A stretch of DNA of 35,868 nt, taken from assembly GCA_019058015.1 (NCBI GenBank), contig JAHLWH010000032.1:1-35868 (forward strand), written 5' to 3'. The stretch is from Promethearchaeota archaeon. Its GTDB lineage: Archaea; Asgardarchaeota; Lokiarchaeia; Sigyniarchaeales; SOKP01. Of the stretch, positions 1 through 11,882 are shown piece by piece. A program made the translations under genes and the position numbers. Within the stretch, counting starts at the first letter, position 1, and each line of letters opens with the position of its first letter. The notes below the pieces were generated by a model. The model was given only the letters and a program-made list of their open reading frames with translations, did no database searches and had not been told where the DNA came from.

Positions 1-221
1 GCTCGAAAGACTGAAATTTTTCTTTAACTTTAAATTCTTAGTTGCTCTTGTCAAAAAATTAATAAAAATTGAAATTTTATTGGAAAATATCTTGATTTTT
101 AAATGATTTTTTATAAAAAGCTTATTTTGAAAATTAAAGGAAGGTTTACACCATAAAAATTAGAGAAATACATAAAGAATTAAATACTTTTAAATACAAA
201 TATATTCTAAAATAATATAGG
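1..221 (+). promoter_or_regulatory. Putative CRISPR leader with TATA-like box
   Basis: AT-rich, ORF-free stretch directly 5' of repeat 1. TTTTAAATA at 188-196 lies ~25 nt upstream of repeat 1, typical archaeal TATA spacing. Confidence 0.65.
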
Positions 222-338
222 GTAGCAACAAAATTAGCTTCATAAAGAAGATTGAAACCCGATTATATTAAACACTAGCCTTGCCGGATGATCAGTAGCA
301 ACAAAATTAGCTTCATAAAGAAGATTGAAACTGGTAGA

Positions 339-1015
339 AATGAACAACACAATTAATGAAGTTCTTGAAAAACTGCATCAAAGAAGAGGACTTCCTCGTC
401 TTGAAATAGAAGGATGTAATTATCCGATAAATAAAGATTTTATTGAAAGGTATAAAAAGTCTAAGGCATCAATGCCTGAGCATCATGAAGGATTTTCTGT
501 CGTACATTTTGATGCGGAGAGAGGCTCGAATTGGAAAGAGTGGCTTAAACATGATGGATTCGGCGGACAGGTAGGTAGTGTAAATATACCTTCCGAATAT
601 TTAGAATATTTAGATGCACCTAAAGGAGATAGATGTGTCTATGCTATGAAAGATAAATTCGATAGACGAGATTATTATTATACTGAGATTTATCGTGAAT
701 ATATCTTGTTCAAAAAATCAGACTTGGTAAGGGTAATCAAAATTGCTTTAAAAACTAATAATAAGGTAGCAGAAGAGATTATCATAGGAAAAGAAATCGT
801 AGATAATGTGATTTGGGATGATTCAATTCCAAAGGGACCTGGCCTTAAGGTAATGGATGCTACTATTTGTTTGCGGATAGACCTGAACGAAGAACCAAGT
901 TATAAAATCTCTTTGGTGAAACCGTGATGGAATTTCATAGGTTACAGCCCCATTTCTCGTTTCGCACCCATGTCCCTGTGGGATTCGTTAAATAATGAAC
1001 AACACAATTAATGAA
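339..1015. repeat. 22-bp exact direct repeat flanking a 655-bp insertion inside spacer 2
   Basis: AATGAACAACACAATTAATGAA at 339-360 and 994-1015. Confidence 0.95.
340..927 (+). CDS. Orphan hypothetical protein (195 aa) inside the giant CRISPR spacer
   Basis: Uninterrupted 588-nt ORF. The ATG at 340 is preferred because the ORF-track TTG at 325 lies within repeat 2. No family recognised. Confidence 0.75.
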   Translation: MNNTINEVLEKLHQRRGLPRLEIEGCNYPINKDFIERYKKSKASMPEHHEGFSVVHFDAERGSNWKEWLKHDGFGGQVGSVNIPSEYLEYLDAPKGDRCVYAMKDKFDRRDYYYTEIYREYILFKKSDLVRVIKIALKTNNKVAEEIIIGKEIVDNVIWDDSIPKGPGLKVMDATICLRIDLNEEPSYKISLVKP

Positions 1016-1063
1016 TCTTAATAGTAGCAACAAAATTAGCTTCATAAAGAAGATTGAAACACC

Positions 1064-1575
1064 AATCAGAAATTTTATTGAAAACTTCACTGATCGATTT
1101 TTTGAGATCGCCCTCATCTACAGGTCCCGTGGAAAGAATTTCAAAAATATTGTTAATTACGACAATTTCCACGTTTGCATTTCCTCGCGATCCCATGAAC
1201 GTCTCGTCAGCAAACAACACGCCTCTTGGAAGGGTTTTTAATTCTTGTTCAATTACTTGTGAATTTTATTGAAATACCTGCGAAACAAAGCTCTTTTTAA
1301 AGCGACTTAACTTATCTTGAGGAACTCCCCATCTTAATGATGTGCCTGTAAGCGGATATTTTAAAACAAACAGCTCGTAAAGGATCTTTTTAATTTTTTG
1401 CTGATACAACAGCAAATTCCACGCGTCAACTTCTTTTCCAAAGCGCTTGTTGCATTTAGAGCACTTGACCCTGTGAATCCTTTTATTTGTAGGTACATTA
1501 TACCCGTCATATACGAGAAAACTTATGTAAGCACACGGATTTTGGGACTCTGATTTAGAATTCTTTTCTTGTCGA
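1064..1575 (-). mobile_element. DDE transposase remnant (IS1/IS1595/IS6-like architecture), pseudogene
   Basis: The minus frame reads NPC...DGYN...HRVKCSKCNKRF (Zn ribbon), an HTH-like segment (LTGTSLRWGVPQDKLSRF), an in-frame TAA at 1266-1268, then VLFADETFMG (first catalytic Asp). It breaks off at repeat 3. No start codon or terminal IRs seen; boundaries approximate. Confidence 0.7.
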
Positions 1576-1785
1576 ATTTAAAGCGTTTTGAGAACAAAAA
1601 AGAAGAAGGATATCACATTTCTCGATATAGTCATTCATATATTTAATAAAATCTTCTCGAGCATCTTCTTCACAGAATAACACATCATCAATTTCAGGAC
1701 GATTAGTCAAATCTTCAGCGATTTTTGAGATTTGAAATTTCTCTGAATCTTTCATAGAATAACATATGAACATATAAGCTCCCAT
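1555..1785 (-). pseudogene. TIR-domain protein, C-terminally truncated
   Basis: MFICYSMKDS (box 1) and IEKCDILLLFCSQNALNS match TIR_2. The ORF ends around the catalytic-Glu helix, where the transposase remnant begins. Confidence 0.75.
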
Positions 1786-1926
1786 TAATTGAATTCCCTT
1801 GTAAAAAATTTAGCTTAAATTTAAATATTAATTTTTTAAATCATAAGTACATATTTGAAAGTTTTCTATAATTATTAGATTTCATTAAGAATGCAATCAA
1901 TTTATAATTTAAATTAAGTTATTAAA

Positions 1927-3378
1927 ATGACAATTGTTGATATTGGAGAGAATTTACACGATAAAATAGCTAAATTCTTGGAAATTCATAATAACCCAGT
2001 TAAAAGGCTTTTAAAAAAGGTTTTAGATTACTTTAGGGAATGGTGTGGAACTTTAGATAATGCAGAAAAAATTAAAGATTTACTCTGGGGTATAAATCGA
2101 ACTATTGAACCATTTAGTCATAAAATTGAGGGAAAATTCCCCGATTTTACTGCTGGAAAAGATCTCAACCAAAAAGGATATGGCATAGATGGTCTTTTGG
2201 AAATTAAGCATAAAGCTAGGAGAATAAAAAAAGAAGATCTTATAGAATATATTGCTCGAAACGACTATTTAAAATATATTGAATATTGTATGAAGAAGTT
2301 AAATAATTCGGATAAAGTAACAGAGACATTAAGATATTTAAAAAGACTAAACAAATTGATCGAAGTAGACGTATTAAAGAAGGAAATTGTAAATAAAAAT
2401 AGTAAAGAAATCAATCGTGAATGTATTAAATTATGTAAACTTTATTCTGATGAAATATTCGACAAGATTTTAACATTTTTAGTAGATATTTCACTTGAAT
2501 GGCTAAATAAATTGTTATCAATATCAAGAATGCCAGTTACAGATTCAGAAAATCCTGAAAAATTTCAAATAGACTTACATCTTCATTCACATTATTCTGA
2601 TTGTGGAGCCCAATCTGTAGGTGAAGTATTATGTAAAGCCAAGGAAATAGGGTTAAAGACAATTTCTATTACTGATCATAATAATTTTGATGGGGTGTGT
2701 AAGGCAATTAAGATAGGTTTGATATTTAATATTGATGTGATCCCGGGAATAGAGGTGGCTACAGGAGTAAATAAAAATAATAAGTGGATTGAAGATAGAA
2801 GGGATATATTGGTATATTTTCCAAACTTAGATGAATTCCAAAAATGGGTTTTAAATGGATTTGACTCATATACTAATAAATTACTCGAAAAAGCATCAGA
2901 TAGAATTCATAATAAAAAATTATGGGGAAATGTTCCAGTCAATACAGTACTAGAATGGGCTATTGATCATGGAGGTGTGAGTATTTTAGCTCATCCAGGT
3001 TATTATAATTATGAAACCTATGAAAATATAATTAGATTATTAAATAAGGGTCTTAAAGGAATTGAACTATTCAATTTAAAATACACTAATTATAGCCATT
3101 ATGCTAAAAACTCCTTAAAAGAGGTTATTGAACTTTTTTTTAACATGATAAAAAAGTTTACAAAATATAGTGCTTCGGAAAGAAAACCAATTTTTACAAT
3201 TGGAAGTGATTCACACTCATTAGATACTGTAGGAATTATCATTTTAAGCTCTGAACTTGTTTTTAAGATAATTTCTTTTTATGATTATTCTAAACCAGCT
3301 ATTAACATTATAACAAGCCAATATAGATGGTTTGAGCAGTTAATTTTTAAATTCTTAAAAAATTCGATCTTAAGTTAA
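1927..3378 (+). CDS. PHP-family metal-dependent phosphoesterase with ~210-aa N-terminal extension
   Basis: Motifs DLHLHSHYSD, ISITDHNN, PGIEV, ILAHPG, GSDSH. Confidence 0.88.
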   Translation: MTIVDIGENLHDKIAKFLEIHNNPVKRLLKKVLDYFREWCGTLDNAEKIKDLLWGINRTIEPFSHKIEGKFPDFTAGKDLNQKGYGIDGLLEIKHKARRIKKEDLIEYIARNDYLKYIEYCMKKLNNSDKVTETLRYLKRLNKLIEVDVLKKEIVNKNSKEINRECIKLCKLYSDEIFDKILTFLVDISLEWLNKLLSISRMPVTDSENPEKFQIDLHLHSHYSDCGAQSVGEVLCKAKEIGLKTISITDHNNFDGVCKAIKIGLIFNIDVIPGIEVATGVNKNNKWIEDRRDILVYFPNLDEFQKWVLNGFDSYTNKLLEKASDRIHNKKLWGNVPVNTVLEWAIDHGGVSILAHPGYYNYETYENIIRLLNKGLKGIELFNLKYTNYSHYAKNSLKEVIELFFNMIKKFTKYSASERKPIFTIGSDSHSLDTVGIIILSSELVFKIISFYDYSKPAINIITSQYRWFEQLIFKFLKNSILS

Positions 3379-3507
3379 GCAATTTTATAATATCTAAATC
3401 CACAGTTATTATATCCACCCTATAAGAATAAATAGGGCATACTATAATAGATTCTAAACTTATTGATGAAATTATTAAAAAATCAGCTTTTTATGAGGAA
3501 AAGAAGT

Positions 3508-3987
3508 TTAAATACATAAAAAGGAAAAAAATGCGCATTTAAAATTTTTAATTTCAGAAATATTATTTCCACCTAAGTTTAATTCTCTCAAAGTTGTAAG
3601 ATGTATTAATTCTGACACATAAGAGATATTATTTTCATATAAATTTAATTCTTCTAAATTCTTTAATTTCTCAACCCCCTTTTATCTCTGTAATATAGTT
3701 TTCTTCTGAATTTAAAACTTCTAAATTAATAACTGAAACTAATCCTTTTATTTGTGAAATTTTATTGATACTAAGATCTAATTCCCATAATTTTGTTAAA
3801 GAGTCAAGGACTTTTATTTCAGAAAAATTATTTTCTGATAAATTAAGAACCTTTAAATTGTTAAATGTAGTAAGTCCTTTAATCTCAGTAATGTAATTTC
3901 CTTTTAAATTTAGTTCTTCCAGATTTATCAATGCTTCTAAGCCTATTATTTCTGAGATTTGGTTATTACTGAGATCTAATAATACAT
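3508..3987 (-). pseudogene. Leucine-rich repeat (SDS22/internalin-like) protein, frameshifted
   Basis: 22-aa LxxLxLxxNxIxxIxGL repeats. They continue past the ORF-track stop after a frameshift in the G5 run (forward C5, ~3675-3679) as LEELNLYENNIS...LRELNLGGNNIS. The ATG at 3987 is out of frame. Confidence 0.8.
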
Positions 3988-3992
3988 TTTTA

Positions 3993-5140
3993 TTATTTAT
4001 TTACCAATTTTAGAATTTCTTCTCCAAAAACTTCTTTGAAAATTTTACTCATTTCTGGAGTTAATGAATATGAACGAAATATATTAGCAAATTGAATTAA
4101 AATATTTCCCAATTCTATTTCCACTCTTTTAATATATGTTGAAATTTTTTCTTTAACCATTCTGATGTTTTTTTTTAAGGAAAATCATAACTTTTAACTG
4201 ATCTTCAATGATAAAATCTCCTATTATATAACGTTCTTCAAAGTCTACAGAGATAGTTCTACCAGCTTTGATTTCTTCTCCCCAAAGATCAACTGCTTTA
4301 AGAAAACTACTTATGAGATCAACACTTATAACTTTTTGAATGAATTCAATACTAAAGACAACAGTACCACTTGCAACATTTTGAATTAGTATTAATTGTA
4401 TATTCTCTATATCTGGATCTTTAATAAATGGCATAGTAATAAAATTATAAATGTCGTTTCCAGTATTATTTACTTCTTTATATAAATAATAAGGCTTTTT
4501 AACATATTTTTCATCAAAAATCTTCTTCCTTCGAATATCATTTATTAAATCTAAAACTGCACCTTGTACATTTTCCATTATACCTAATGGTACTCCAAAG
4601 GCAATTGTCATACGATATTCTAATGCGGCTATTTCACCTCCATTAATACCAATCATTTTTATACCATTAGGATTTGAGTAAGAATTCAAAATATCAAACC
4701 AATACTGGAAAATTATATCAAGATTTAAATCAAAATCAATCTTTGGTAATTTATATACAATTTTTCCTGCAATCTGGCTGAAATTTATTCTATTAGGAGT
4801 ATAAATATAGGCATTATATTTTGAAGGCATTGTATAAAAATTCAAAATCAGTTCATTAATTTCATCAGCGTAGCAACCAGAAATTAGCTCTCCTTTATGA
4901 TCTTTAAAAGCTTGTCTAAAAATCTTAAAATATTCGTTTAATTGAGTTTTATCGAAATTTTTAATTCCTCCTGCTAAAATAACAATTGTATTATTTAAAA
5001 TTGGCTGTTCTAATTTAAACCCATAATTATTCAATTCATTTATTACTTCTTCCCATTCAGCAGTATCAGTTTTTCCAAGCTTTTTTAATAAAAAACCAAT
5101 ACCTAATAATAATAAAATCCTAGTTGTTAGAAGAAGATGT
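3993..5140 (-). pseudogene. SLOG-domain + longin-like domain fusion, 5'-truncated and frameshifted
   Basis: SLOG-like motifs IVILAGG, ELISG and GINGGEIAALEYRMTIAFGVPLG. C-terminal ASGTVVF...VDLISSFLKAVDLWGEEI is longin-like. A shift at the A9 run (4168-4176) extends the frame (TSEWLKKKISTYIKRVE...) to TAA at 3993-3995. The frame is open upstream of 5034 to ~5140 without an ATG. Confidence 0.6.
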
Positions 5141-5367
5141 TCCTAATGCTATCAGAGTGAATTTACTAGTTAAGTTAGTATATGGTGAAATAGGACAGAA
5201 ATTTGGAGTAAAATATGGTGAAATTTTTAATAGAATTGGTGCTGGATTTTTGAAAGATATAGCTTAGGATAAAATAATTAATTTTCTATTACTTTTTCTA
5301 AAAATTTAAGTTTAGATGAGCTTAAATAAGATTAAAATGGAACTTATTAATCAAATCAAATATCCAT

Positions 5368-6410
5368 CTAAATTGCTTTTAAGAATTTAATGATTTCATC
5401 AATCTTTTTATTATTTAGGATCAATTTTGAGGAATTATATATTGAATAGGGTAATTTTTCGGAAATAACATACTTTTTAATTTTTTTTAAAGCTTTTGTA
5501 ATATTATTATAAGAAATATGCTGCTTTTAAGGAGTAATATTTATTTTAATATTTTCAAAAAATTGTTTTATTTCATCAATTGAAAATTCCGCATATTCTT
5601 CGTGTAGAAAGAGACTAATTAGTATATTCATGCCAATTAAATTACCGTGAATATAATGTTCTTGAGAAAATGATTCTAGGCAATATGCCAGAAAATATTC
5701 GCTTCCTTCTTCAGGCCTTGCATTCCCCCATTCTTCACAAAGTACAACTTCATTATAAAATCCATCAACTAAAGCTTTAATTCCTTTTTCAGTCACATCC
5801 TTAATTTCAGATCTTGCTTCTATTAAATTAACAGCAATATTTCTTGCTCGATTAAATAAATTTTGGTTAAGATTTTCGTTTGTTTCATCTTTGGCGAGTT
5901 TCCAATCTCCTAACGCTGTAGTAATTGAAATTGTATCCGAAACTCTTGCTCTGTTTAAAAATGGAGGAGCGATTTGAATTAAATCATAATCGATAAAAAT
6001 ATCTTTTGGGTGGCTCTCTCCAATATATTTTACTTTATTATGGATTCTTACGGCAATGAAGAACATAAGAAAGCATCCACAGAAATAATCGATGGTATCA
6101 ATATTAAGTCTAAATTTAAATCAAATTTATCTCTTAAATACCAAGCTAAAAATTTTGCAGTATCACAAGTTGTTCCTCCACCAATCCCTATTAAACTACA
6201 ATTTTCTAAAAGATGATATTCAAAATTCAAAGCTAATGTTTTTAAATGGTCGATTGCCATATTATTATTAAATTTAAGGAAAATTGGTTTATGTGTGATT
6301 TTTGGTTCTATAATTTTCCATGGTTCTTCCATTGCGACTAAAATATATTTATCGAGAGAGTTAATTTTTTCAATTGAGAGCCAATTTCCAAAAATAGGTT
6401 TTTCAGTCAT
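5368..6410 (-). pseudogene. Glycerol-1-phosphate dehydrogenase-like (EgsA/AraM, Fe/Zn-ADH family) pseudogene
   Basis: GIGGGTTCDTAKF, IPSIISVDAF, RPEEGSE and HG motifs. 1-nt frameshift near 6056 and in-frame TAA at 5527-5529; the frame continues to TAG at 5368-5370. Confidence 0.8.
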
Positions 6411-6686
6411 AATAAAAATAGTAATTATATAAAATTAAAAATATTAATAAATAAATTGAAAAAATAAAAAGAACTAATTATCATACGATTTTTTGCGTTT
6501 TTCCTAATTTTAATAATTTTATTCTTGAAACCGAATATTATTGCAGCAATTCTTAAGATATAAAGAAAAAATTATTGTAAAGATTTTCTAAATACCCAGC
6601 TCATTTTAAACGATTATCATAACTTCTTTGAGCAGATATATTTAAAAATATAAGTCTTATTTTATATTAGAAACTGGAGTTTAAAA

Positions 6687-7346
6687 TTGATCGATAAAAA
6701 CGAGTTGTTAAAGCTTTTACCAAAGTTAATAAGGGAAGACGACGAGATAAAGGGTGCAATAATAACTGCTCTCTCCAGAGTGGTTGCTACAAAAGAAGAT
6801 ATTATAAGAATTATTGAACATTCCGACAGACGATTTGAAGCCCTTCAAGAGCAAATGAATAAGCGATTTGAAGCCGTAGATAAGCGATTTGAAGCATTAA
6901 TTAAAGAAATGAATAAGGGTTTTGAAATAGCCAGACAAGAAAGAGCCCAGTTACAAACTTCTATAAACTCGTTAGGACGTCGAGGCGATATAGGGTTGGA
7001 AAATGCTATTTTATGCCTCTTAAATGATAATTTAATTCAAGAAAGTATAAATACAAGTGAAATTAAAAAAGAAAAACTCAATGATAAAGAAGGTAAAGTA
7101 TTTGGGGAAAATTATTCAACTGATATCGATATATTGGTTCAGAACGCTAAAACGATTTTAATTGAAATAAAATTCCATGCAGACAATAGCGACGCTTATC
7201 AACTTATTAAAAAGGCAGAATTATATAAGTATCAATTTAATAGGAACTACGACGAGCTAATGATTATTTGTTTGGAAATTACACAAAATAATTTTGAGCA
7301 AATTGTAAAGCAGGGCATTAAAGTAATTGCGGGAAAAATTGTTTGA
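6687..7346 (+). CDS. Coiled-coil + PD-(D/E)XK nuclease-fold protein (DUF3782/paREP-like)
   Basis: Short RFEA repeats (DRRFEA/NKRFEA/DKRFEA) and TDIDILV...LIEIK. TTG start preceded by GGAG. Confidence 0.8.
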   Translation: MIDKNELLKLLPKLIREDDEIKGAIITALSRVVATKEDIIRIIEHSDRRFEALQEQMNKRFEAVDKRFEALIKEMNKGFEIARQERAQLQTSINSLGRRGDIGLENAILCLLNDNLIQESINTSEIKKEKLNDKEGKVFGENYSTDIDILVQNAKTILIEIKFHADNSDAYQLIKKAELYKYQFNRNYDELMIICLEITQNNFEQIVKQGIKVIAGKIV

Positions 7347-7451: not shown

Positions 7452-10400
7452 TTGATTGAGCACAATAACATGGCAAAGGTAAAAGATAATTTGGCCTATC
7501 CGTATGTAACGGTATTCAAAAAGAAGCCGTTTAGATCATTTACTTTTGCCATAGATGACGATATAGGAAGTTTTTTTATACCTGAATATGATAAGATTGT
7601 GAAAATTTTTCGGTTTTTTGAAAAAAATTTATTAAATTTTAAAAATCTGAATTTAGAGAATATATATTGGTTTCTTTTATTGGGGAAATATTTAAGGGAA
7701 GATATATCTATAAATCTCAAAAAGATCATTAATTTCATAACAGGATGTGAGATTTTTGAAGAAAATTCCCTAGGATTTAAGTTCTCTCCTGAATCTAAAC
7801 AGAGAAAACCGGATAATTGGTCAACTTTTTTTGCTTTAGCCAGTTTAAATTTATTAGGAGAATTAGATGTTTATTTATCTACACATCCAAGAGAAAATAT
7901 AAAAGAAAAGATTATTAATTTTATTTTTAAGACCAGAGATAAAGGGCGTTTTGTTCATTGTTTAAACAAAAATTGTACAATTTGCCAAAAAACAACGCCT
8001 ATTAGAACAAGTTTTTTTGTAATAGAAGCATTAATTCTTCTAGATTTTGATATCAAATTACAACAAAATGTGTTTTTAAAATATTTTAATGATTTAAAAA
8101 AGAAATATTCTATAGTATTTCAATTACTGATTCTTAAATATTTTGATTTAATTTCTGATATCGAGACTAAACACTTAAAATATTTACACCAATTTCAACA
8201 AAATGATGGTGGTTTTAGTTTTAAGGAAAATATTGGAAAAATTAATGAAACATTTTGGATTATTTATGTTTTGGAAAACTATTCCTGGTTGCTTGATTAC
8301 AATCGTGGAAGGATTTATTCTTTTCTCTCAACGAAAATCAAAGGCTTAAATCATGATTATAGTTCATTTAATACCTTGAAATTGATGGATATTTCGAAAA
8401 TTATTTTAATGTGCTCATTTATTTGGTCTAAATTTATTGAAGAAGTTGAGAGAACTGTTTTTAGACATTTTGATATAAATACTTCTTTAGACTTAAATAT
8501 TTTGAAAAAAGAGTTAGGAATAAATGAGGGAATACCAGAAATTCTTAGATATATTAATCAGAAATATTACTTTAATTTAGAGATTTTAGATAATGAAATT
8601 GAATTTAATAATTATTTAAGAAATTTAACCCGAGAAAATGCATATTTAGCTAAATCAGTATATGCGTCGATAAAAAATTCTAGCGTCATCTATTTAAATA
8701 AACTTCTGAATGACTATAAATACAATTACCCAAATAAGCCAAAAAAAATTAGGGATTTGATCCTCCTAATAGAAGATTTAATTTCGCACAACTTTTTCCT
8801 AGGTCGAATTCTTCGGAAAAACATGATTTTTTTTAGTAAATATTATTTATATAAAGACAAATTTATTTATGAAGTAATTAGAATTGATTCTGATATAAAT
8901 AGCGAAGAAATAATTAATGAAAAATTTAAATTGGAGGAAATCAAAACAGATATTTATAATATTATAATTAAATTAAAAGATACACCAAAAAAGATTAAAG
9001 AAGAGATTAAAAGCTTAATACTTGTAAATGAATTCGATTTAGCAAAAGAAAGGTTAAAATACAATGTTAAAAATGCTTTAATGGAAGCCGATTTTTTAAA
9101 TGAAAATATTGAAAATTCCTTTTCTACAGATTTTAAATACATAAATCCAAATTATCAGTTATCCAATGAGATAGTGGAATGGAACAAGAATTATTCGGAA
9201 ATTCGAAGCAAATATTTTAATTTACAAAATTATTTTAATGAAATTTTCAAGGAAAAAGAAAATTTAAAAAATTTCAAATTAATTTTGAATAAATTGGAAG
9301 ACATAATTGACAAAAATGAACAAAAAATTTATTCTTTAATTGATCACTTTAAAAATTTGTTTAGAGAATCCCTAGAGAAATCATATTCTAATGAAATTGT
9401 CCAACAATTATTAAAAGTATGCGAACATCTTAATTTAGAAATCACGAAATTAGATACGCAAATCTATGAAATATCACATAAAATTACTTCTAAAGAAAAA
9501 TCCATTAAAAAAGCTCAAAAGAAGGTTATCTCAAAATGGATATTAATTAAAGAAGATGCAGATACATTTATTGATTATTTCCTAGAAGGATTTAAGATTT
9601 ATGAAAATGATAAAAATGAAATGAAGGAAATAGAACAAAGTACTTCTTTGATGATTAATGAACTCAAAAACACAATTGATTTAATCTTAAAGGAAAAAGA
9701 ATATCAATTAGCACTGGAAATTATTGAAGAGAGAACTGAGAAGCATTTAAATGAAAAATTAGAATTAATCAAAAATTCTCAATCTCAGTTAAAGGAACAT
9801 ATGAAGAGTAAGAGAAAACTTACTCTTCTTCTAAAGAAAATTCAAGAAGATTGGAATAAATTAGAGCAAAAAATAATTGAGAAACTTGACAATTATCGAA
9901 ATTCTATTGAAGATAAAGTTATTCAAGAACGCGAACTTGAGAAATTAAAAGAATTTGACAATTTTATAAAGAGCAATATTTCAATTTTAAAAGAACAATT
10001 AAGAAAGAAAGAAAATGAATGTGCGAAAGATTTAAATTATCAAAAACTTAAAATCGCCAATTTAAACTCTCGAATTGCTGAACTTTCTAAAAAGTATTCA
10101 GATCTCAACGAAAAAGTTAAAGATAAAGTAAAAGAACTTGCTAAAATTGTAGTGGATTTTCAAGAGAAATCAAAGTTATGTATGTTATCATGGAATAAAT
10201 TCATAGATCTATTTAAAAATAATTTGAATGATTTAAAAAATAAATATACAAATGAGATTATAAAACAAGAGATACTATCAACTAGCTCACAATCTAAAAC
10301 AAATCTCATAAAACTAGATGATTTAAAGAAAAAATTAAATCTAAAATGTAATGTGTTGATCGAACGGATCAATGAGATGATAGAAATTACAAAATTAGAT

Positions 10401-11882
10401 GGAGAATTGGATGAAAATGACAAAGAGCTTCTTGTTCACACTGATGATTATTATAAGAATAAACAATTGCGAAATTTTATTGAAAAACAAATAGAGAAAT
10501 TAGGAAATGATTTCGGAAAATTAGTATCTCTATATGAATCTGCAATAAAAAATAAATCTCTTAAACTTAATATTTTAGAAATTCAAAATAGAATAGAAGA
10601 TTTTAATACCCAGCAATTAAATTTAGAAAGAAGTTACCAAAATGAAATTTTAAAAATTGGTATAAATATAAATAGAGATGATTTCTTAGCGAATAGAAAT
10701 TTTTTCAATACTGAACTTAATAGATATAGGGATATTATTGATGAAATTAACAAAAATACAATACTTTTTAATCAACTTGTAAATTTCATCGGTGGAGAAT
10801 TCAACCCTTTAAGAATCCAATTACGGGAATTAAATAAATCCTTTCAAGATGAATCTGAAAAAACAAATGATTACGATAAACTATTAAATAATTTTAGCGG
10901 TAAAATCTTAGAATTATCTGAAACTACAAATATTTCTTTCAATGAGATTGAGCAAGGAATTAGTACCACGATGATTAAGAATGAAAGTTTAAAAATATCA
11001 AATTCTGAAATTCGAGAAGTACTCGTTTTTATGAAAAACCAATTTAATAAAGAATTTGAAGAATTTAAGGAAAATGTATCAAAAAAATTTGATTTGATTA
11101 AAAACGACGCTTTAAAAAAGAATTTGATGCAATTTATAAATAGAAATCAGATTTTACTTAATCAAATGCTTGGATCCTTAGAACGAAAAGTTGAAGATAA
11201 ACTAGAAATTAAAGATTTTAAATCTACAAGTATTATGGTTCAAAGAAGAGTAAAAAAAATACGAGAAAAATTAAAATATATTGAAAATGAAACCTCTAGA
11301 CTTAAAAAAGAATTTAAAAAATCATCTCCTACATTCAATACAAAAAATAAATTTCTTTTTGACGATTTTAAACATTTTCTGCATGAGTATAATGAGATAA
11401 TTAATGAGAAAATTAAAAAATTAGAGCAATTAATACTTAAAAGTTATATTACAATTGTTATTAAGGCGGTTAAAGACGAATATATAACAATATCTTTTTT
11501 GGCACACGAACTTAAAATTAAAAAAGATAAAATCCAAACATATATTATCACTTTGATTGGTGATAATGATTTACCAGGAAAATATGACCCTGAAATTCAG
11601 TTATATTATGAGAATCTTGAAATTATTAATAATTTAAATCCTGCTAAGTTAAAAGTTATTAAAACCACCAACTTCAGATTTTATGAGATTCTTAATAGAT
11701 TAAGATTCATTGCCAGCCAATATGGATCAGTTATATCTTTAATAGCTGCTTTATTTACAATTTCTATAGCCCTTAATAATTTAACAGGAGGAAACCCTTT
11801 AATAGTGTTTTTTCCGTTAATAATTACAGCTGTTATTATTTTATATCTCTTATTAAGAAAGCAAAAAGAAGAGAAAATATGA
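7452..11882 (+). CDS. Large membrane-anchored protein: prenyltransferase/squalene-cyclase-like alpha barrel, winged-helix/PCI-like modules, long coiled coils, 2 C-terminal TM helices
   Basis: GFKFSP..PDNWSTFFALASL and QFQQNDGGFS...TFWIIYVL (prenyltransferase repeats). PCI-like ends LIKLDDLKKKLNL...LDGELD and YITISFLAHELKI...LPGKYD. Hydrophobic hairpin plus basic tail at the C-terminus. Alternative start ATG 7470. Confidence 0.7.
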   Translation: MIEHNNMAKVKDNLAYPYVTVFKKKPFRSFTFAIDDDIGSFFIPEYDKIVKIFRFFEKNLLNFKNLNLENIYWFLLLGKYLREDISINLKKIINFITGCEIFEENSLGFKFSPESKQRKPDNWSTFFALASLNLLGELDVYLSTHPRENIKEKIINFIFKTRDKGRFVHCLNKNCTICQKTTPIRTSFFVIEALILLDFDIKLQQNVFLKYFNDLKKKYSIVFQLLILKYFDLISDIETKHLKYLHQFQQNDGGFSFKENIGKINETFWIIYVLENYSWLLDYNRGRIYSFLSTKIKGLNHDYSSFNTLKLMDISKIILMCSFIWSKFIEEVERTVFRHFDINTSLDLNILKKELGINEGIPEILRYINQKYYFNLEILDNEIEFNNYLRNLTRENAYLAKSVYASIKNSSVIYLNKLLNDYKYNYPNKPKKIRDLILLIEDLISHNFFLGRILRKNMIFFSKYYLYKDKFIYEVIRIDSDINSEEIINEKFKLEEIKTDIYNIIIKLKDTPKKIKEEIKSLILVNEFDLAKERLKYNVKNALMEADFLNENIENSFSTDFKYINPNYQLSNEIVEWNKNYSEIRSKYFNLQNYFNEIFKEKENLKNFKLILNKLEDIIDKNEQKIYSLIDHFKNLFRESLEKSYSNEIVQQLLKVCEHLNLEITKLDTQIYEISHKITSKEKSIKKAQKKVISKWILIKEDADTFIDYFLEGFKIYENDKNEMKEIEQSTSLMINELKNTIDLILKEKEYQLALEIIEERTEKHLNEKLELIKNSQSQLKEHMKSKRKLTLLLKKIQEDWNKLEQKIIEKLDNYRNSIEDKVIQERELEKLKEFDNFIKSNISILKEQLRKKENECAKDLNYQKLKIANLNSRIAELSKKYSDLNEKVKDKVKELAKIVVDFQEKSKLCMLSWNKFIDLFKNNLNDLKNKYTNEIIKQEILSTSSQSKTNLIKLDDLKKKLNLKCNVLIERINEMIEITKLDGELDENDKELLVHTDDYYKNKQLRNFIEKQIEKLGNDFGKLVSLYESAIKNKSLKLNILEIQNRIEDFNTQQLNLERSYQNEILKIGININRDDFLANRNFFNTELNRYRDIIDEINKNTILFNQLVNFIGGEFNPLRIQLRELNKSFQDESEKTNDYDKLLNNFSGKILELSETTNISFNEIEQGISTTMIKNESLKISNSEIREVLVFMKNQFNKEFEEFKENVSKKFDLIKNDALKKNLMQFINRNQILLNQMLGSLERKVEDKLEIKDFKSTSIMVQRRVKKIREKLKYIENETSRLKKEFKKSSPTFNTKNKFLFDDFKHFLHEYNEIINEKIKKLEQLILKSYITIVIKAVKDEYITISFLAHELKIKKDKIQTYIITLIGDNDLPGKYDPEIQLYYENLEIINNLNPAKLKVIKTTNFRFYEILNRLRFIASQYGSVISLIAALFTISIALNNLTGGNPLIVFFPLIITAVIILYLLLRKQKEEKI

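What the first reader, a model, noticed from the sequence alone, without database searches (positions are those of the whole stretch)
295..1060. A whole gene sits inside a CRISPR array as a 692-bp 'giant spacer'
Seen: two perfect 37-bp repeats (295-331, 1024-1060) enclose 692 bp instead of ~36 bp. The interval holds one intact 195-aa ORF (340-927) in the array's transcription direction, with its ATG 8 nt after the repeat and no room for its own promoter. Both repeats and the ORF are undamaged while most neighbours to 6.4 kb are pseudogenes. Established: arrays are transcribed from the leader, and Cas6 cuts repeats to leave an 8-nt 5' tag (here AUUGAAAC). Inference: processing would release a crRNA-tagged mRNA with a 16-nt 5' UTR, so the array would act as an expression platform for a cargo gene. 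Best candidate here for an undescribed system.
Basis: partly seen in the sequence, partly recalled or inferred. Interest (0 to 1): 0.92.

Follow-up and report, generated by a model that had tools for sequence, protein, structure and literature searches.

The report
Foreign gene recombined into a CRISPR spacer
A CRISPR array of an Asgard archaeon really does hold a whole gene between two repeats, but it looks like a normal 37-base spacer split by DNA that recombined with it, not a new expression system.

Summary
Repeats 295-331 and 1024-1060 are perfect, 692 nt apart, and enclose an intact 195-aa ORF (340-927). The same structure occurs in a second MAG (L021; 2 differences in 692 nt, different leader-proximal spacers). 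Independent k=31 contigs of two runs bridge both junctions at chromosomal depth.

The interval is not a giant spacer. An exact 22-nt direct repeat (339-360 and 994-1015) flanks 633 nt. The 7 nt before it, the 22 nt and the 8 nt after it add up to 37 nt, a normal spacer length here (36-39). The 22-mer is the gene's own 5' end.

Best reading (0.6): a foreign DNA with a 655-bp period (small circle, concatemer or tandem copy) recombined with a spacer that matched it. Spacer-protospacer recombination is known from experiments in staphylococci.

The event is single. This repeat family and this gene occur in 2 of 154 and 2 of 400 related genomes. Repeat 3 abuts a truncated transposase-like remnant, so the array is cut short.

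The protein belongs to a rare family (39 representatives in 1.84 billion) with no known domain or fold. Leader-driven, Cas6-released expression is possible (same strand, no T5 run) but untested, as no RNA data were available.

The parts
1..221 (+). CRISPR leader. The window starts at the contig start, and its first 17 nt equal the last 17 nt of contig C258, which carries the type III cas operon.
   Evidence: It is 83% and 81% identical to the stretches preceding arrays on C158 and C192. The 17-nt end overlap is, and the cas genes on C258.
222..258 (+). CRISPR repeat 1 (37 nt, leader-proximal)
259..294 (+). Spacer 1 (36 nt). It is replaced by two different spacers (39 and 40 nt) in L021.
295..331 (+). 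CRISPR repeat 2 (perfect); its 3' end is ATTGAAAC
332..338 (+). 5' 7 nt of the split ancestral spacer
   Evidence: 7 + 22 + 8 = 37 nt. The 14 normal spacers in this genome are 36-39 nt.
339..360 (+). 22-nt direct repeat, copy 1: the core of the spacer and the first 21 nt of the ORF
   Evidence: D15; shuffles reach at most 13 nt
340..927 (+). Intact ORF of 195 aa from a rare family of unknown function. The predicted fold is alpha/beta with long antiparallel strands.
361..993 (+). Unique part of the inserted DNA (633 nt). With one repeat copy the unit is 655 bp. GC is 36% against 29.4% for the genome.
928..993 (+). 66-nt non-coding tail of the insert (GC 45%). It has no RNA family hit, no significant fold and no similarity to the flanks of relatives.
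994..1015 (+). 22-nt direct repeat, copy 2
   Evidence: D15
1016..1023 (+). 3' 8 nt of the split ancestral spacer
1024..1060 (+). CRISPR repeat 3. It is perfect, not a degenerate terminal repeat, because the array is cut off here.
   Evidence: Terminal repeats of the other arrays carry 3-4 mismatches.
1066..1571 (-). Fragment (about residues 20-187) of a 436-aa transposase-like ORF that is intact elsewhere in G002. It is multi-copy and abundant in metagenomes, and it abuts repeat 3.
   Evidence: It is 85% identical to G002:C14:1377-1882. The intact ORF is L036:1320-2630. Depth reaches 484 in run X6. No Pfam or NCBIfam family matched; 'transposase-like' rests on motifs read by eye.

Best explanation
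A normal 37-nt spacer of a type III-associated CRISPR array was split when foreign DNA carrying an identical 22-nt stretch recombined with it. That stretch is the first 21 nt of a small gene plus one base upstream.

The product reads: repeat, 7 nt, 22-mer, gene plus 66-nt tail, 22-mer, 8 nt, repeat. A single crossover with a 655-bp circle gives exactly this. So does copying or ends-in recombination from a donor in which the 22-mer recurs every 655 bp, such as a concatemer or a tandem gene copy.

The spacer had most likely been acquired earlier from a relative of that element. In that case the immune memory itself supplied the homology.

The insertion is fixed at chromosomal copy number. It is shared by two lineages, and the array went on gaining or turning over leader-proximal spacers. 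The array was later truncated behind repeat 3 by a transposase-like element.

The gene is most likely a passenger. Read-through from the leader and Cas6 cutting could release it as an RNA with an 8-nt tag and a 16-nt 5' UTR, but that is inferred, not shown.

Shown: the anatomy, that the structure is real, that it is shared, and that the gene is rare and of foreign type. Inferred: the recombination mechanism, the form of the donor, and any expression.
For: 1. An exact 22-nt direct repeat sits at both ends of the insert. The longest repeat in 300 shuffles was 13 nt.

2. The parts add up as 7 + 22 + 8 = 37 nt. This lies inside the 36-39 nt range of all 14 normal spacers of the genome's arrays.

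3. The 22-mer is native to the gene, not arbitrary target DNA. Its last 9 nt encode the Ile-Asn-Glu that precedes the conserved LEKLHQ motif, and the same 9 nt occur in the closest relative, L022.

4. The insert has no terminal inverted repeats and encodes no transposase or integrase.

5. The structure is real and stable. It occurs in L021 with different upstream spacers. k=31 contigs bridge both junctions in 2 of 4 runs laid, at the depth of the flank.

6. The gene looks foreign. It has a single copy in the genome. It occurs in 2 of 61 relatives and 2 of 400 genomes of the phylum. Otherwise it is found only on short unbinned metagenome contigs. Its GC is 36% against 29.4% for the genome, the 93rd percentile.

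7. There is a precedent. A review passage reports recombination between CRISPR spacers and their targets in phages, citing Varble et al. 2019 and Watson et al. 2018 (PMC8616872, passages seen).
Against: No donor was found. There was no hit in viral contigs, phage records or plasmid records. No free circular form or un-inserted spacer showed up as a joint in the contigs laid, although contigs drop rare variants.

The identity between spacer and gene stops abruptly at both ends of the 22-mer: 1 of 7 and 2 of 8 flanking bases agree without gaps (read). For a spacer taken from a mere sequence variant of the gene one would expect scattered mismatches instead. The spacer's own 3' part would put a stop codon after codon 8.

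A 655-bp circle is smaller than any replicon I know of (recalled), so the donor must have been a by-product or a tandem or concatemeric form.

In relatives (L023, L024) the gene follows a paralogue, but the 66-nt tail shows no trace of one.

No cas1 was found in the genome, which is 94% complete. How the spacer was acquired is therefore open.
Confidence: 0.6

Rival explanations
1. A larger circular plasmid or virus integrated by one crossover at the spacer. Most of it was later deleted, leaving only the gene and 66 nt next to the second copy of the 22-mer.
For: The neighbourhood is decaying and rearranged. There is a truncated transposase-like fragment abutting repeat 3, a TIR fragment and a split Fe-ADH gene. 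This reading avoids the need for a 655-bp donor. In relatives the gene lies among other genes.
Against: No deletion junction can be recognised, and the tail matches nothing in the relatives. The deletion would have had to spare exactly one intact gene and both 22-mers.
Confidence: 0.15
2. One reading: the array serves as an expression platform. The leader promoter drives the gene, Cas6 releases a crRNA-tagged mRNA, and the arrangement is kept by selection.
For: The ORF is co-directional with the array, with its ATG 8 nt after repeat 2. No run of five or more T lies on the + strand between 222 and 1060, and the first T6 is at 1098. Cas6 and type III genes are present. The insert differs from L021 at 2 of 692 nt (0.29%), against 60 of 5935 nt (1.0%) in the adjacent flank. 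My own Poisson estimate from the counts gives P of about 0.03.
Against: It is a single event: 2 of 154 genomes carry the repeat and 2 of 400 the gene. Both differences between the copies are non-synonymous. At this divergence an intact ORF is expected by chance.

The whole first 6.9 kb is 98.7% identical between the two genomes, while the next 5 kb is 95% and later stretches of the window mostly 94-96%. The low divergence therefore reflects the history of the locus, not of the gene.

Type III complexes bind the 5' tag and crRNA 3' ends are trimmed (recalled). That would cover the start codon or degrade the message.

No RNA data were available.
Confidence: 0.1
3. The gene plus tail is a mobile cassette that inserts by site-specific recombination or transposition. 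The 22-mer would be its attachment core or a target-site duplication.
For: Identity ends sharply at both ends of the 22-mer, as at an att core. The unit is one promoterless ORF with a short tail, like an integron cassette. L024 carries a 30-nt tandem duplication of the same 5' end of its gene copy.
Against: The insert has no terminal inverted repeats. The tail has no significant structure (z = 0.31) and no Rfam hit. The genes tested within the first 7.3 kb include no recombinase. The genome holds no second copy of the 22-mer or of the cassette. A target-site duplication is excluded because the 22-mer encodes conserved residues of the gene. An insertion that leaves 7 and 8 nt summing with the core to a normal spacer length would then be a coincidence.
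Confidence: 0.1
4. It is an assembly artefact: a spacer and a protospacer-bearing element were joined through a shared short word.
For: Both genomes are metagenome assemblies, and the shared 22-mer is close to a common smallest k (21; recalled).
Against: Two assemblies with different upstream spacers give the same junctions. Logan contigs (k=31, longer than the 22-mer) run unbranched across both junctions in runs X1 and X3, at the depth of the flanks. Even an artefact would need a 655-bp cyclic element in the sample.
Confidence: 0.02

Closest known systems
Spacer-protospacer homologous recombination (staphylococcal phages and CRISPR loci; Varble et al. 2019 and Watson et al. 2018, as described in the review PMC8616872)
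   Same: The homology between a spacer and its target serves as the crossover site, joining invader DNA to the array. The insertion lies inside a spacer, and the shared sequence is duplicated at both junctions.
   Different: In that work the outcome was phage genomes carrying CRISPR loci, followed by transduction. Here a 655-bp gene-sized piece is fixed in the chromosome of an Asgard archaeon with a type III system. Only 22 of the 37 spacer bases are shared, and no donor is known. I saw only the review's passage, not the original papers (PMC6533911 is not held).
Prophage integration into CRISPR repeats (phiAP1.1 in Streptococcus pyogenes; bioRxiv 10.1101/2020.10.09.333658, abstract seen)
   Same: A foreign element sits inside an array and alters what the array transcribes.
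   Different: That integration is site-specific and goes into the repeat, carrying a whole prophage. Here the site is a spacer, the repeats are untouched, the insert is a single gene, and no integrase is present.
IS elements and Tn7-like transposons that land in CRISPR arrays (PMC11837452, search listing and start of abstract only)
   Same: The array is interrupted by mobile DNA. The remnant at 1066-1571 next to repeat 3 is of this kind.
   Different: The 655-bp insert has no transposase, no terminal inverted repeats, and a 22-nt duplication that belongs to the gene itself.
Integron gene cassettes (recalled knowledge)
   Same: A promoterless single ORF with a short tail is inserted downstream of a resident promoter, possibly from a circular form.
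   Different: No attC-like structure, no integrase, no second cassette, and only one occurrence.

Membership tests
CRISPR array (type III-associated) | Three or more near-identical direct repeats separated by unique spacers of uniform length | tested here: met
   There are three identical 37-nt repeats, and spacer 1 is 36 nt. The same repeat family forms arrays on 4 other contigs, with 14 spacers of 36-39 nt in all.
CRISPR array (type III-associated) | Conserved AT-rich leader upstream of the first repeat | tested here: met
   Bases 1-221 are 83% and 81% identical to the sequences in front of two other arrays.
CRISPR array (type III-associated) | Effector and processing genes in the genome (Cas10, RAMP proteins, Cas6) | tested here: met
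   C258 carries Cas10 (HD plus palm2), five RAMP proteins, a Cmr3-like protein and two CARF proteins. Cas6 is on C217 (PF10040, E = 3.2e-12). The subtype is unresolved, as the NCBIfam hits fall below their cut-offs.
CRISPR array (type III-associated) | Adaptation gene cas1 | tested here: not met
   PF01867 was not found in G000, which is 94.4% complete. The control search hit 7 of 14 known genomes. Absence is not proven.
CRISPR array (type III-associated) | Cas6 cleavage 8 nt from the repeat's 3' end, giving an AUUGAAAC tag | not testable with these tools
   The repeat ends in ATTGAAAC. The cleavage site is recalled from other archaeal systems. No RNA run was available.
Spacer-protospacer recombination product | Insertion inside a spacer with both neighbouring repeats intact | tested here: met
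Spacer-protospacer recombination product | The shared sequence is duplicated at both junctions, and the remaining parts rebuild a spacer of normal length | tested here: met
   The sum 7 + 22 + 8 = 37 is, against a normal range of 36-39 nt.
Spacer-protospacer recombination product | The shared sequence belongs to the incoming DNA (a protospacer) | tested here: met
   The 22-mer holds the start codon and the conserved I-N-E codons of the gene family. Nine of its nucleotides are shared with relative L022.
Spacer-protospacer recombination product | A donor element carrying the protospacer can be identified | tested here: inconclusive
   No relative was found in viral contigs, phages or plasmids. 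The relatives found lie on short metagenome contigs of unknown nature.
IS element or transposon insertion | Transposase gene and terminal inverted repeats with a short target duplication | tested here: not met
   The ORF matches no family in Pfam, PHROGs (best E = 0.048), PADLOC or NCBIfam. No inverted repeat lies at 361/993. The duplication is 22 nt and native to the gene.
Integron-like gene cassette | Structured attC-like recombination site and a nearby integrase | tested here: not met
   The fold of 920-1023 has z = 0.31. No Rfam hit. None of the 7 ORFs tested within 7.3 kb has a recombinase domain. The rest of the window was not scanned.
Oversized spacer acquired by Cas1-Cas2 | A single foreign fragment between duplicated repeats, without internal terminal duplication | tested here: not met
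   The interval carries a 22-nt terminal direct repeat whose flanks complete a 37-nt spacer. No cas1 was found.

The most novel reading that the evidence does not exclude
CRISPR spacers can act as landing pads that capture genes from the very elements they target. This captured gene would then be expressed from the array's leader promoter and released by Cas6 as a crRNA-tagged, short-leader mRNA, giving an integron-like gene-capture role for a CRISPR array in an Asgard archaeon.
Probability: 0.1. Interest if true: 0.8.

Novelty: new variant of a known kind. Interest (0 to 1): 0.5.

Why it matters
It appears to be a natural, fixed footprint of recombination between a CRISPR spacer and matching foreign DNA. 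That process has been shown in laboratory staphylococci but, as far as my three literature searches reached, has not been described as a gene captured inside an archaeal array.

If the reading holds, immune memory can also be a route of gene gain.

It also warns annotators that 'giant spacers' may be split spacers. It gives a simple signature to screen for: a long inter-repeat interval whose ends share a direct repeat and whose remaining parts sum to a normal spacer length.

The captured protein belongs to a rare family with a confident predicted structure but no known fold. It is a candidate accessory gene of an unknown Asgard mobile element.

Tried and rejected
**Function of the ORF**
- No family was found in Pfam (40 family members scanned, where only one member had a zinc ribbon), PADLOC or NCBIfam. 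The best PHROGs hit had E = 0.048.
- The AlphaFold model is confident (pLDDT 87.8, pTM 0.79), but no fold match emerged. Foldseek against PDB gave a best E of 0.11. VIA-align wide gave a best Z of 5.7, to beta-barrel and YceI-like chains, which is below the noise level the tool states. BFVD gave a best E of 0.085.
- The ESM Atlas returned no usable hit.

**Tail of the insert (928-993)**
- No Rfam hit and no significant fold.
- No similarity to the family profile in any frame.
- No similarity to the flanks of relatives.

**Ideas tested and dropped**
- The sequence upstream of the gene in L023 and L024 looked like a reversed CRISPR repeat end. It is the C-terminus of an upstream paralogue.
- The 4702-nt and 2353-nt inter-repeat gaps on C158 and C192 looked like further gene-sized spacers. 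They separate distinct arrays, with degenerate terminal repeats and their own leaders.
- A 37-nt, 86% match of window 336-372 to C18 lies inside another coding frame and looks like AT-rich chance.

**Syntenic locus**
- The same-genus genomes G001, G003 and G004 hold neither the repeat nor the flank. No pre-insertion allele could be seen.

**Expression**
- No RNA holder was listed.
- Runs X5 and X6 hold only internal pieces of the ORF (247 and 153 nt). They bridge no junction and say nothing about habitat or structure.

**Not tested**
- Whether a DNA-targeting (type I) system is present.
- Archaeal promoter motifs inside the repeat.
- Recombinase genes beyond 7.3 kb.

Supplementary files of papers were not consulted.

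Full report
**1. Observation**

The window is the start of contig C20 of a 3.84-Mb genome that is 94% complete. A near-identical contig bears the record title 'Promethearchaeota archaeon' MAG, which places the organism among the Asgard archaea.

Three identical 37-nt repeats lie at 222-258, 295-331 and 1024-1060. The first interval is 36 nt and the second is 692 nt. ORF 340-927 (195 aa) is on the + strand, and its ATG lies 8 nt after repeat 2.

Bases 1-221 are 83% and 81% identical to the stretches that precede two other arrays of the same repeat family (C158, C192). They are therefore a leader, and the array reads on the + strand.

The genome encodes a type III effector set on contig C258: Cas10 with HD and palm domains, five RAMP proteins, a Cmr3-like protein and two CARF proteins. 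The last 17 nt of C258 equal the first 17 nt of the window, so this operon probably sits just upstream. A Cas6 gene lies beside another array on C217. Cas1 was not found.

**2. It is real**

L021 is a contig of a second MAG, assembled separately (handle G002). It is 98.7% identical to window 222-6921 over 6707 bp. It has the same 692-nt interval between perfect repeats and the same internal 22-nt duplication, with only two differences (644 C>T, 646 A>C).

Upstream it differs. L021 has two other spacers of 39 and 40 nt where the window has its 36-nt spacer 1.

Logan contigs are built with 31-letter words, which is longer than the 22-nt duplication. In run X1 one contig covers 303-1059 with no difference (depth 23.2; flanking contig 20.9). 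In run X3 one contig covers 323-1052 and carries the two L021 alleles (depth 9.48; flank 11.5). X1 and X3 belong to one study and may be the very samples the MAGs came from. They are therefore an independent assembly method, not independent samples.

No joint for an un-inserted or circular form was listed, but contigs drop rare variants.

**3. What the interval is**

An exact 22-nt direct repeat lies at 339-360 and 994-1015. The longest direct repeat in 300 shuffles of the interval was 13 nt. It is flanked by 7 nt (332-338) on the left and 8 nt (1016-1023) on the right. Together these make 7 + 22 + 8 = 37 nt. All 14 normal spacers of the genome's arrays are 36-39 nt.

The interval is therefore an ordinary spacer interrupted by 655 bp: 633 unique bases plus one copy of the 22-mer.

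The 22-mer comprises one base plus the first seven codons of the ORF. Its 3' half encodes the Ile-Asn-Glu that precedes the conserved LEKLHQ motif of the family. The same nine nucleotides occur in the closest relative, L022. The duplicated sequence thus belongs to the gene. It is not a target-site duplication of arbitrary spacer sequence.

The insert has no terminal inverted repeats, and its ORF matches no transposase or integrase family. Its 66-nt tail has no RNA family hit and no significant fold.

**4. The gene**

The protein has 9 relatives at 41-64% identity on short metagenome contigs. A profile search found 39 representatives among 1.84 billion proteins. No Pfam domain was found in 40 members, apart from a zinc ribbon in one.

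The AlphaFold model is confident (pLDDT 87.8): an N-terminal helical part followed by a sheet of long antiparallel strands. It matches nothing convincingly in PDB or in the viral library.

The gene is found in 2 of 61 close relatives and 2 of 400 genomes of the phylum. In both cases these are G000 and G002, and both hold the same insertion. It was not found in viral contigs, phage records or plasmid records.

In the relatives L023 and L024 the gene follows a shorter paralogue. In L025 it is frameshifted and lies beside metabolic genes.

The insert's GC is 36% against 29.4% for the genome, the 93rd percentile. A foreign origin is likely, but the kind of donor is unknown.

**5. Mechanism**

The layout is: left spacer part, shared 22-mer, gene side, then the upstream side of the gene, the shared 22-mer again, and the right spacer part. 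This is what a crossover within the 22-mer produces between the spacer and a circular molecule of 655 bp. Copying from a donor in which the 22-mer recurs every 655 bp gives the same result.

Spacer-target recombination has been reported in bacteria (review passage).

Three weak points remain:
- No donor was found.
- Identity stops abruptly at both ends of the 22-mer.
- A 655-bp circle is very small.

A larger element followed by a deletion, or a site-specific cassette, therefore remain rivals. I put the homology-driven model at 0.6.

**6. History of the locus**

Repeat 3 is perfect, whereas the terminal repeats of the other arrays carry 3-4 mismatches. Five bases after repeat 3 begins a fragment on the minus strand (1066-1571) of a 436-aa ORF. 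That ORF is intact on another contig of G002, with 85% nucleotide identity. It is highly abundant in one metagenome, at depth 484.

The ORF has a zinc-finger-like N-terminus and D..D..E-like motifs that I read by eye, but no family hit. The array was thus cut short by a mobile element.

The first 6.9 kb of the window are 98.7% identical to G002. The next 5 kb are 95% identical, and later stretches mostly 94-96%, with one stretch at 98%. This locus therefore has a more recent common history than the rest of the two genomes. The different leader-proximal spacers show that the arrays kept changing afterwards.

**7. The expression idea**

Some facts are compatible with it. The ORF is on the array's strand, no run of five or more T lies between 222 and 1060, the first T6 is at 1098, and Cas6 is present.

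Other facts count against an adaptive platform:
- The event is single.
- The only two substitutions between the copies are non-synonymous.
- At 0.3% divergence an intact ORF is expected by chance.
- From recalled knowledge, type III complexes bind the 5' tag and crRNA 3' ends are trimmed, which would mask the start codon or remove the message.

A side inference follows. Because maturation trims the 3' end, a crRNA carrying the first 29 nt of the old spacer could still be made. It has the same sense as the ORF's mRNA and so would not target it.

None of this could be tested, because no RNA run was listed.

**8. Verdict**

The feature is real and unusual, with a clear scar that points to recombination between a spacer and matching foreign DNA. 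It is a new natural variant of a known process, not a new system. Interest is moderate (0.5). The bold reading, spacer-guided gene capture with array-driven expression, remains possible at about 0.1.

Supplementary files of papers were not consulted.

Noticed in passing
L024:250-309: In a metagenome relative of the gene, the first 30 nt of the ORF (from the ATG) are duplicated in perfect tandem. This is the same 5' end that is duplicated in the window. It may be a slippage event, an artefact, or a hint that this gene start is recombination-prone.
   Followed up: partly
window 1066-1571 (-); L036:1320-2630: The window holds a fragment of a 436-aa ORF with a zinc-finger-like N-terminus and DDE-like motifs (read by eye). 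It matches no Pfam or NCBIfam family. It is multi-copy and very abundant in a marine sediment run (depth 484). It is probably an undescribed Asgard insertion-sequence transposase.
   Followed up: partly
G000:C158 (L027:1731-2075, - strand): A 114-aa STIV B116-like protein (PF08960, E = 1.9e-21) lies between two tandem CRISPR arrays, next to a Card1-type CARF fragment. From memory, this family includes viral and cellular ring nucleases that degrade cyclic oligoadenylate.
   Followed up: no
window 1-6921 versus 6900-35868: Identity to the sister genome G002 is 98.7% over the array-proximal 6.7 kb. It drops to 95% in the next 5 kb and is mostly 94-96% further on (one stretch 98%). This suggests recent gene flow or a sweep of the CRISPR-proximal block.
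   Followed up: partly
window 1555-1785 (-), 5527-6410 (-): A 76-aa TIR-domain fragment and an iron-containing alcohol dehydrogenase split into two overlapping ORFs. The block next to the array is decaying.
   Followed up: no
window 3556-3980: Degenerate 66-nt periodic repeats on the minus strand encode leucine-rich-repeat-like units (ORF 3671-3931). It appears to be a remnant of a longer LRR protein.
   Followed up: no
window 7452-11882 (+): A 1476-aa ORF is rich in predicted coiled coil and has a C-terminal hydrophobic segment. It was not analysed.
   Followed up: no
G000:C258 (L026:2180-3607): A 475-aa Gtr1/RagA-like small GTPase (PF04670, E = 4.3e-12) sits directly upstream of the type III cas operon.
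   Followed up: no
L023:134-575 and L024 upstream of 250: The gene family occurs as tandem paralogues (a shorter copy followed by a longer one) sharing the LEKLH..PRLEIEG N-terminal motif.
   Followed up: partly
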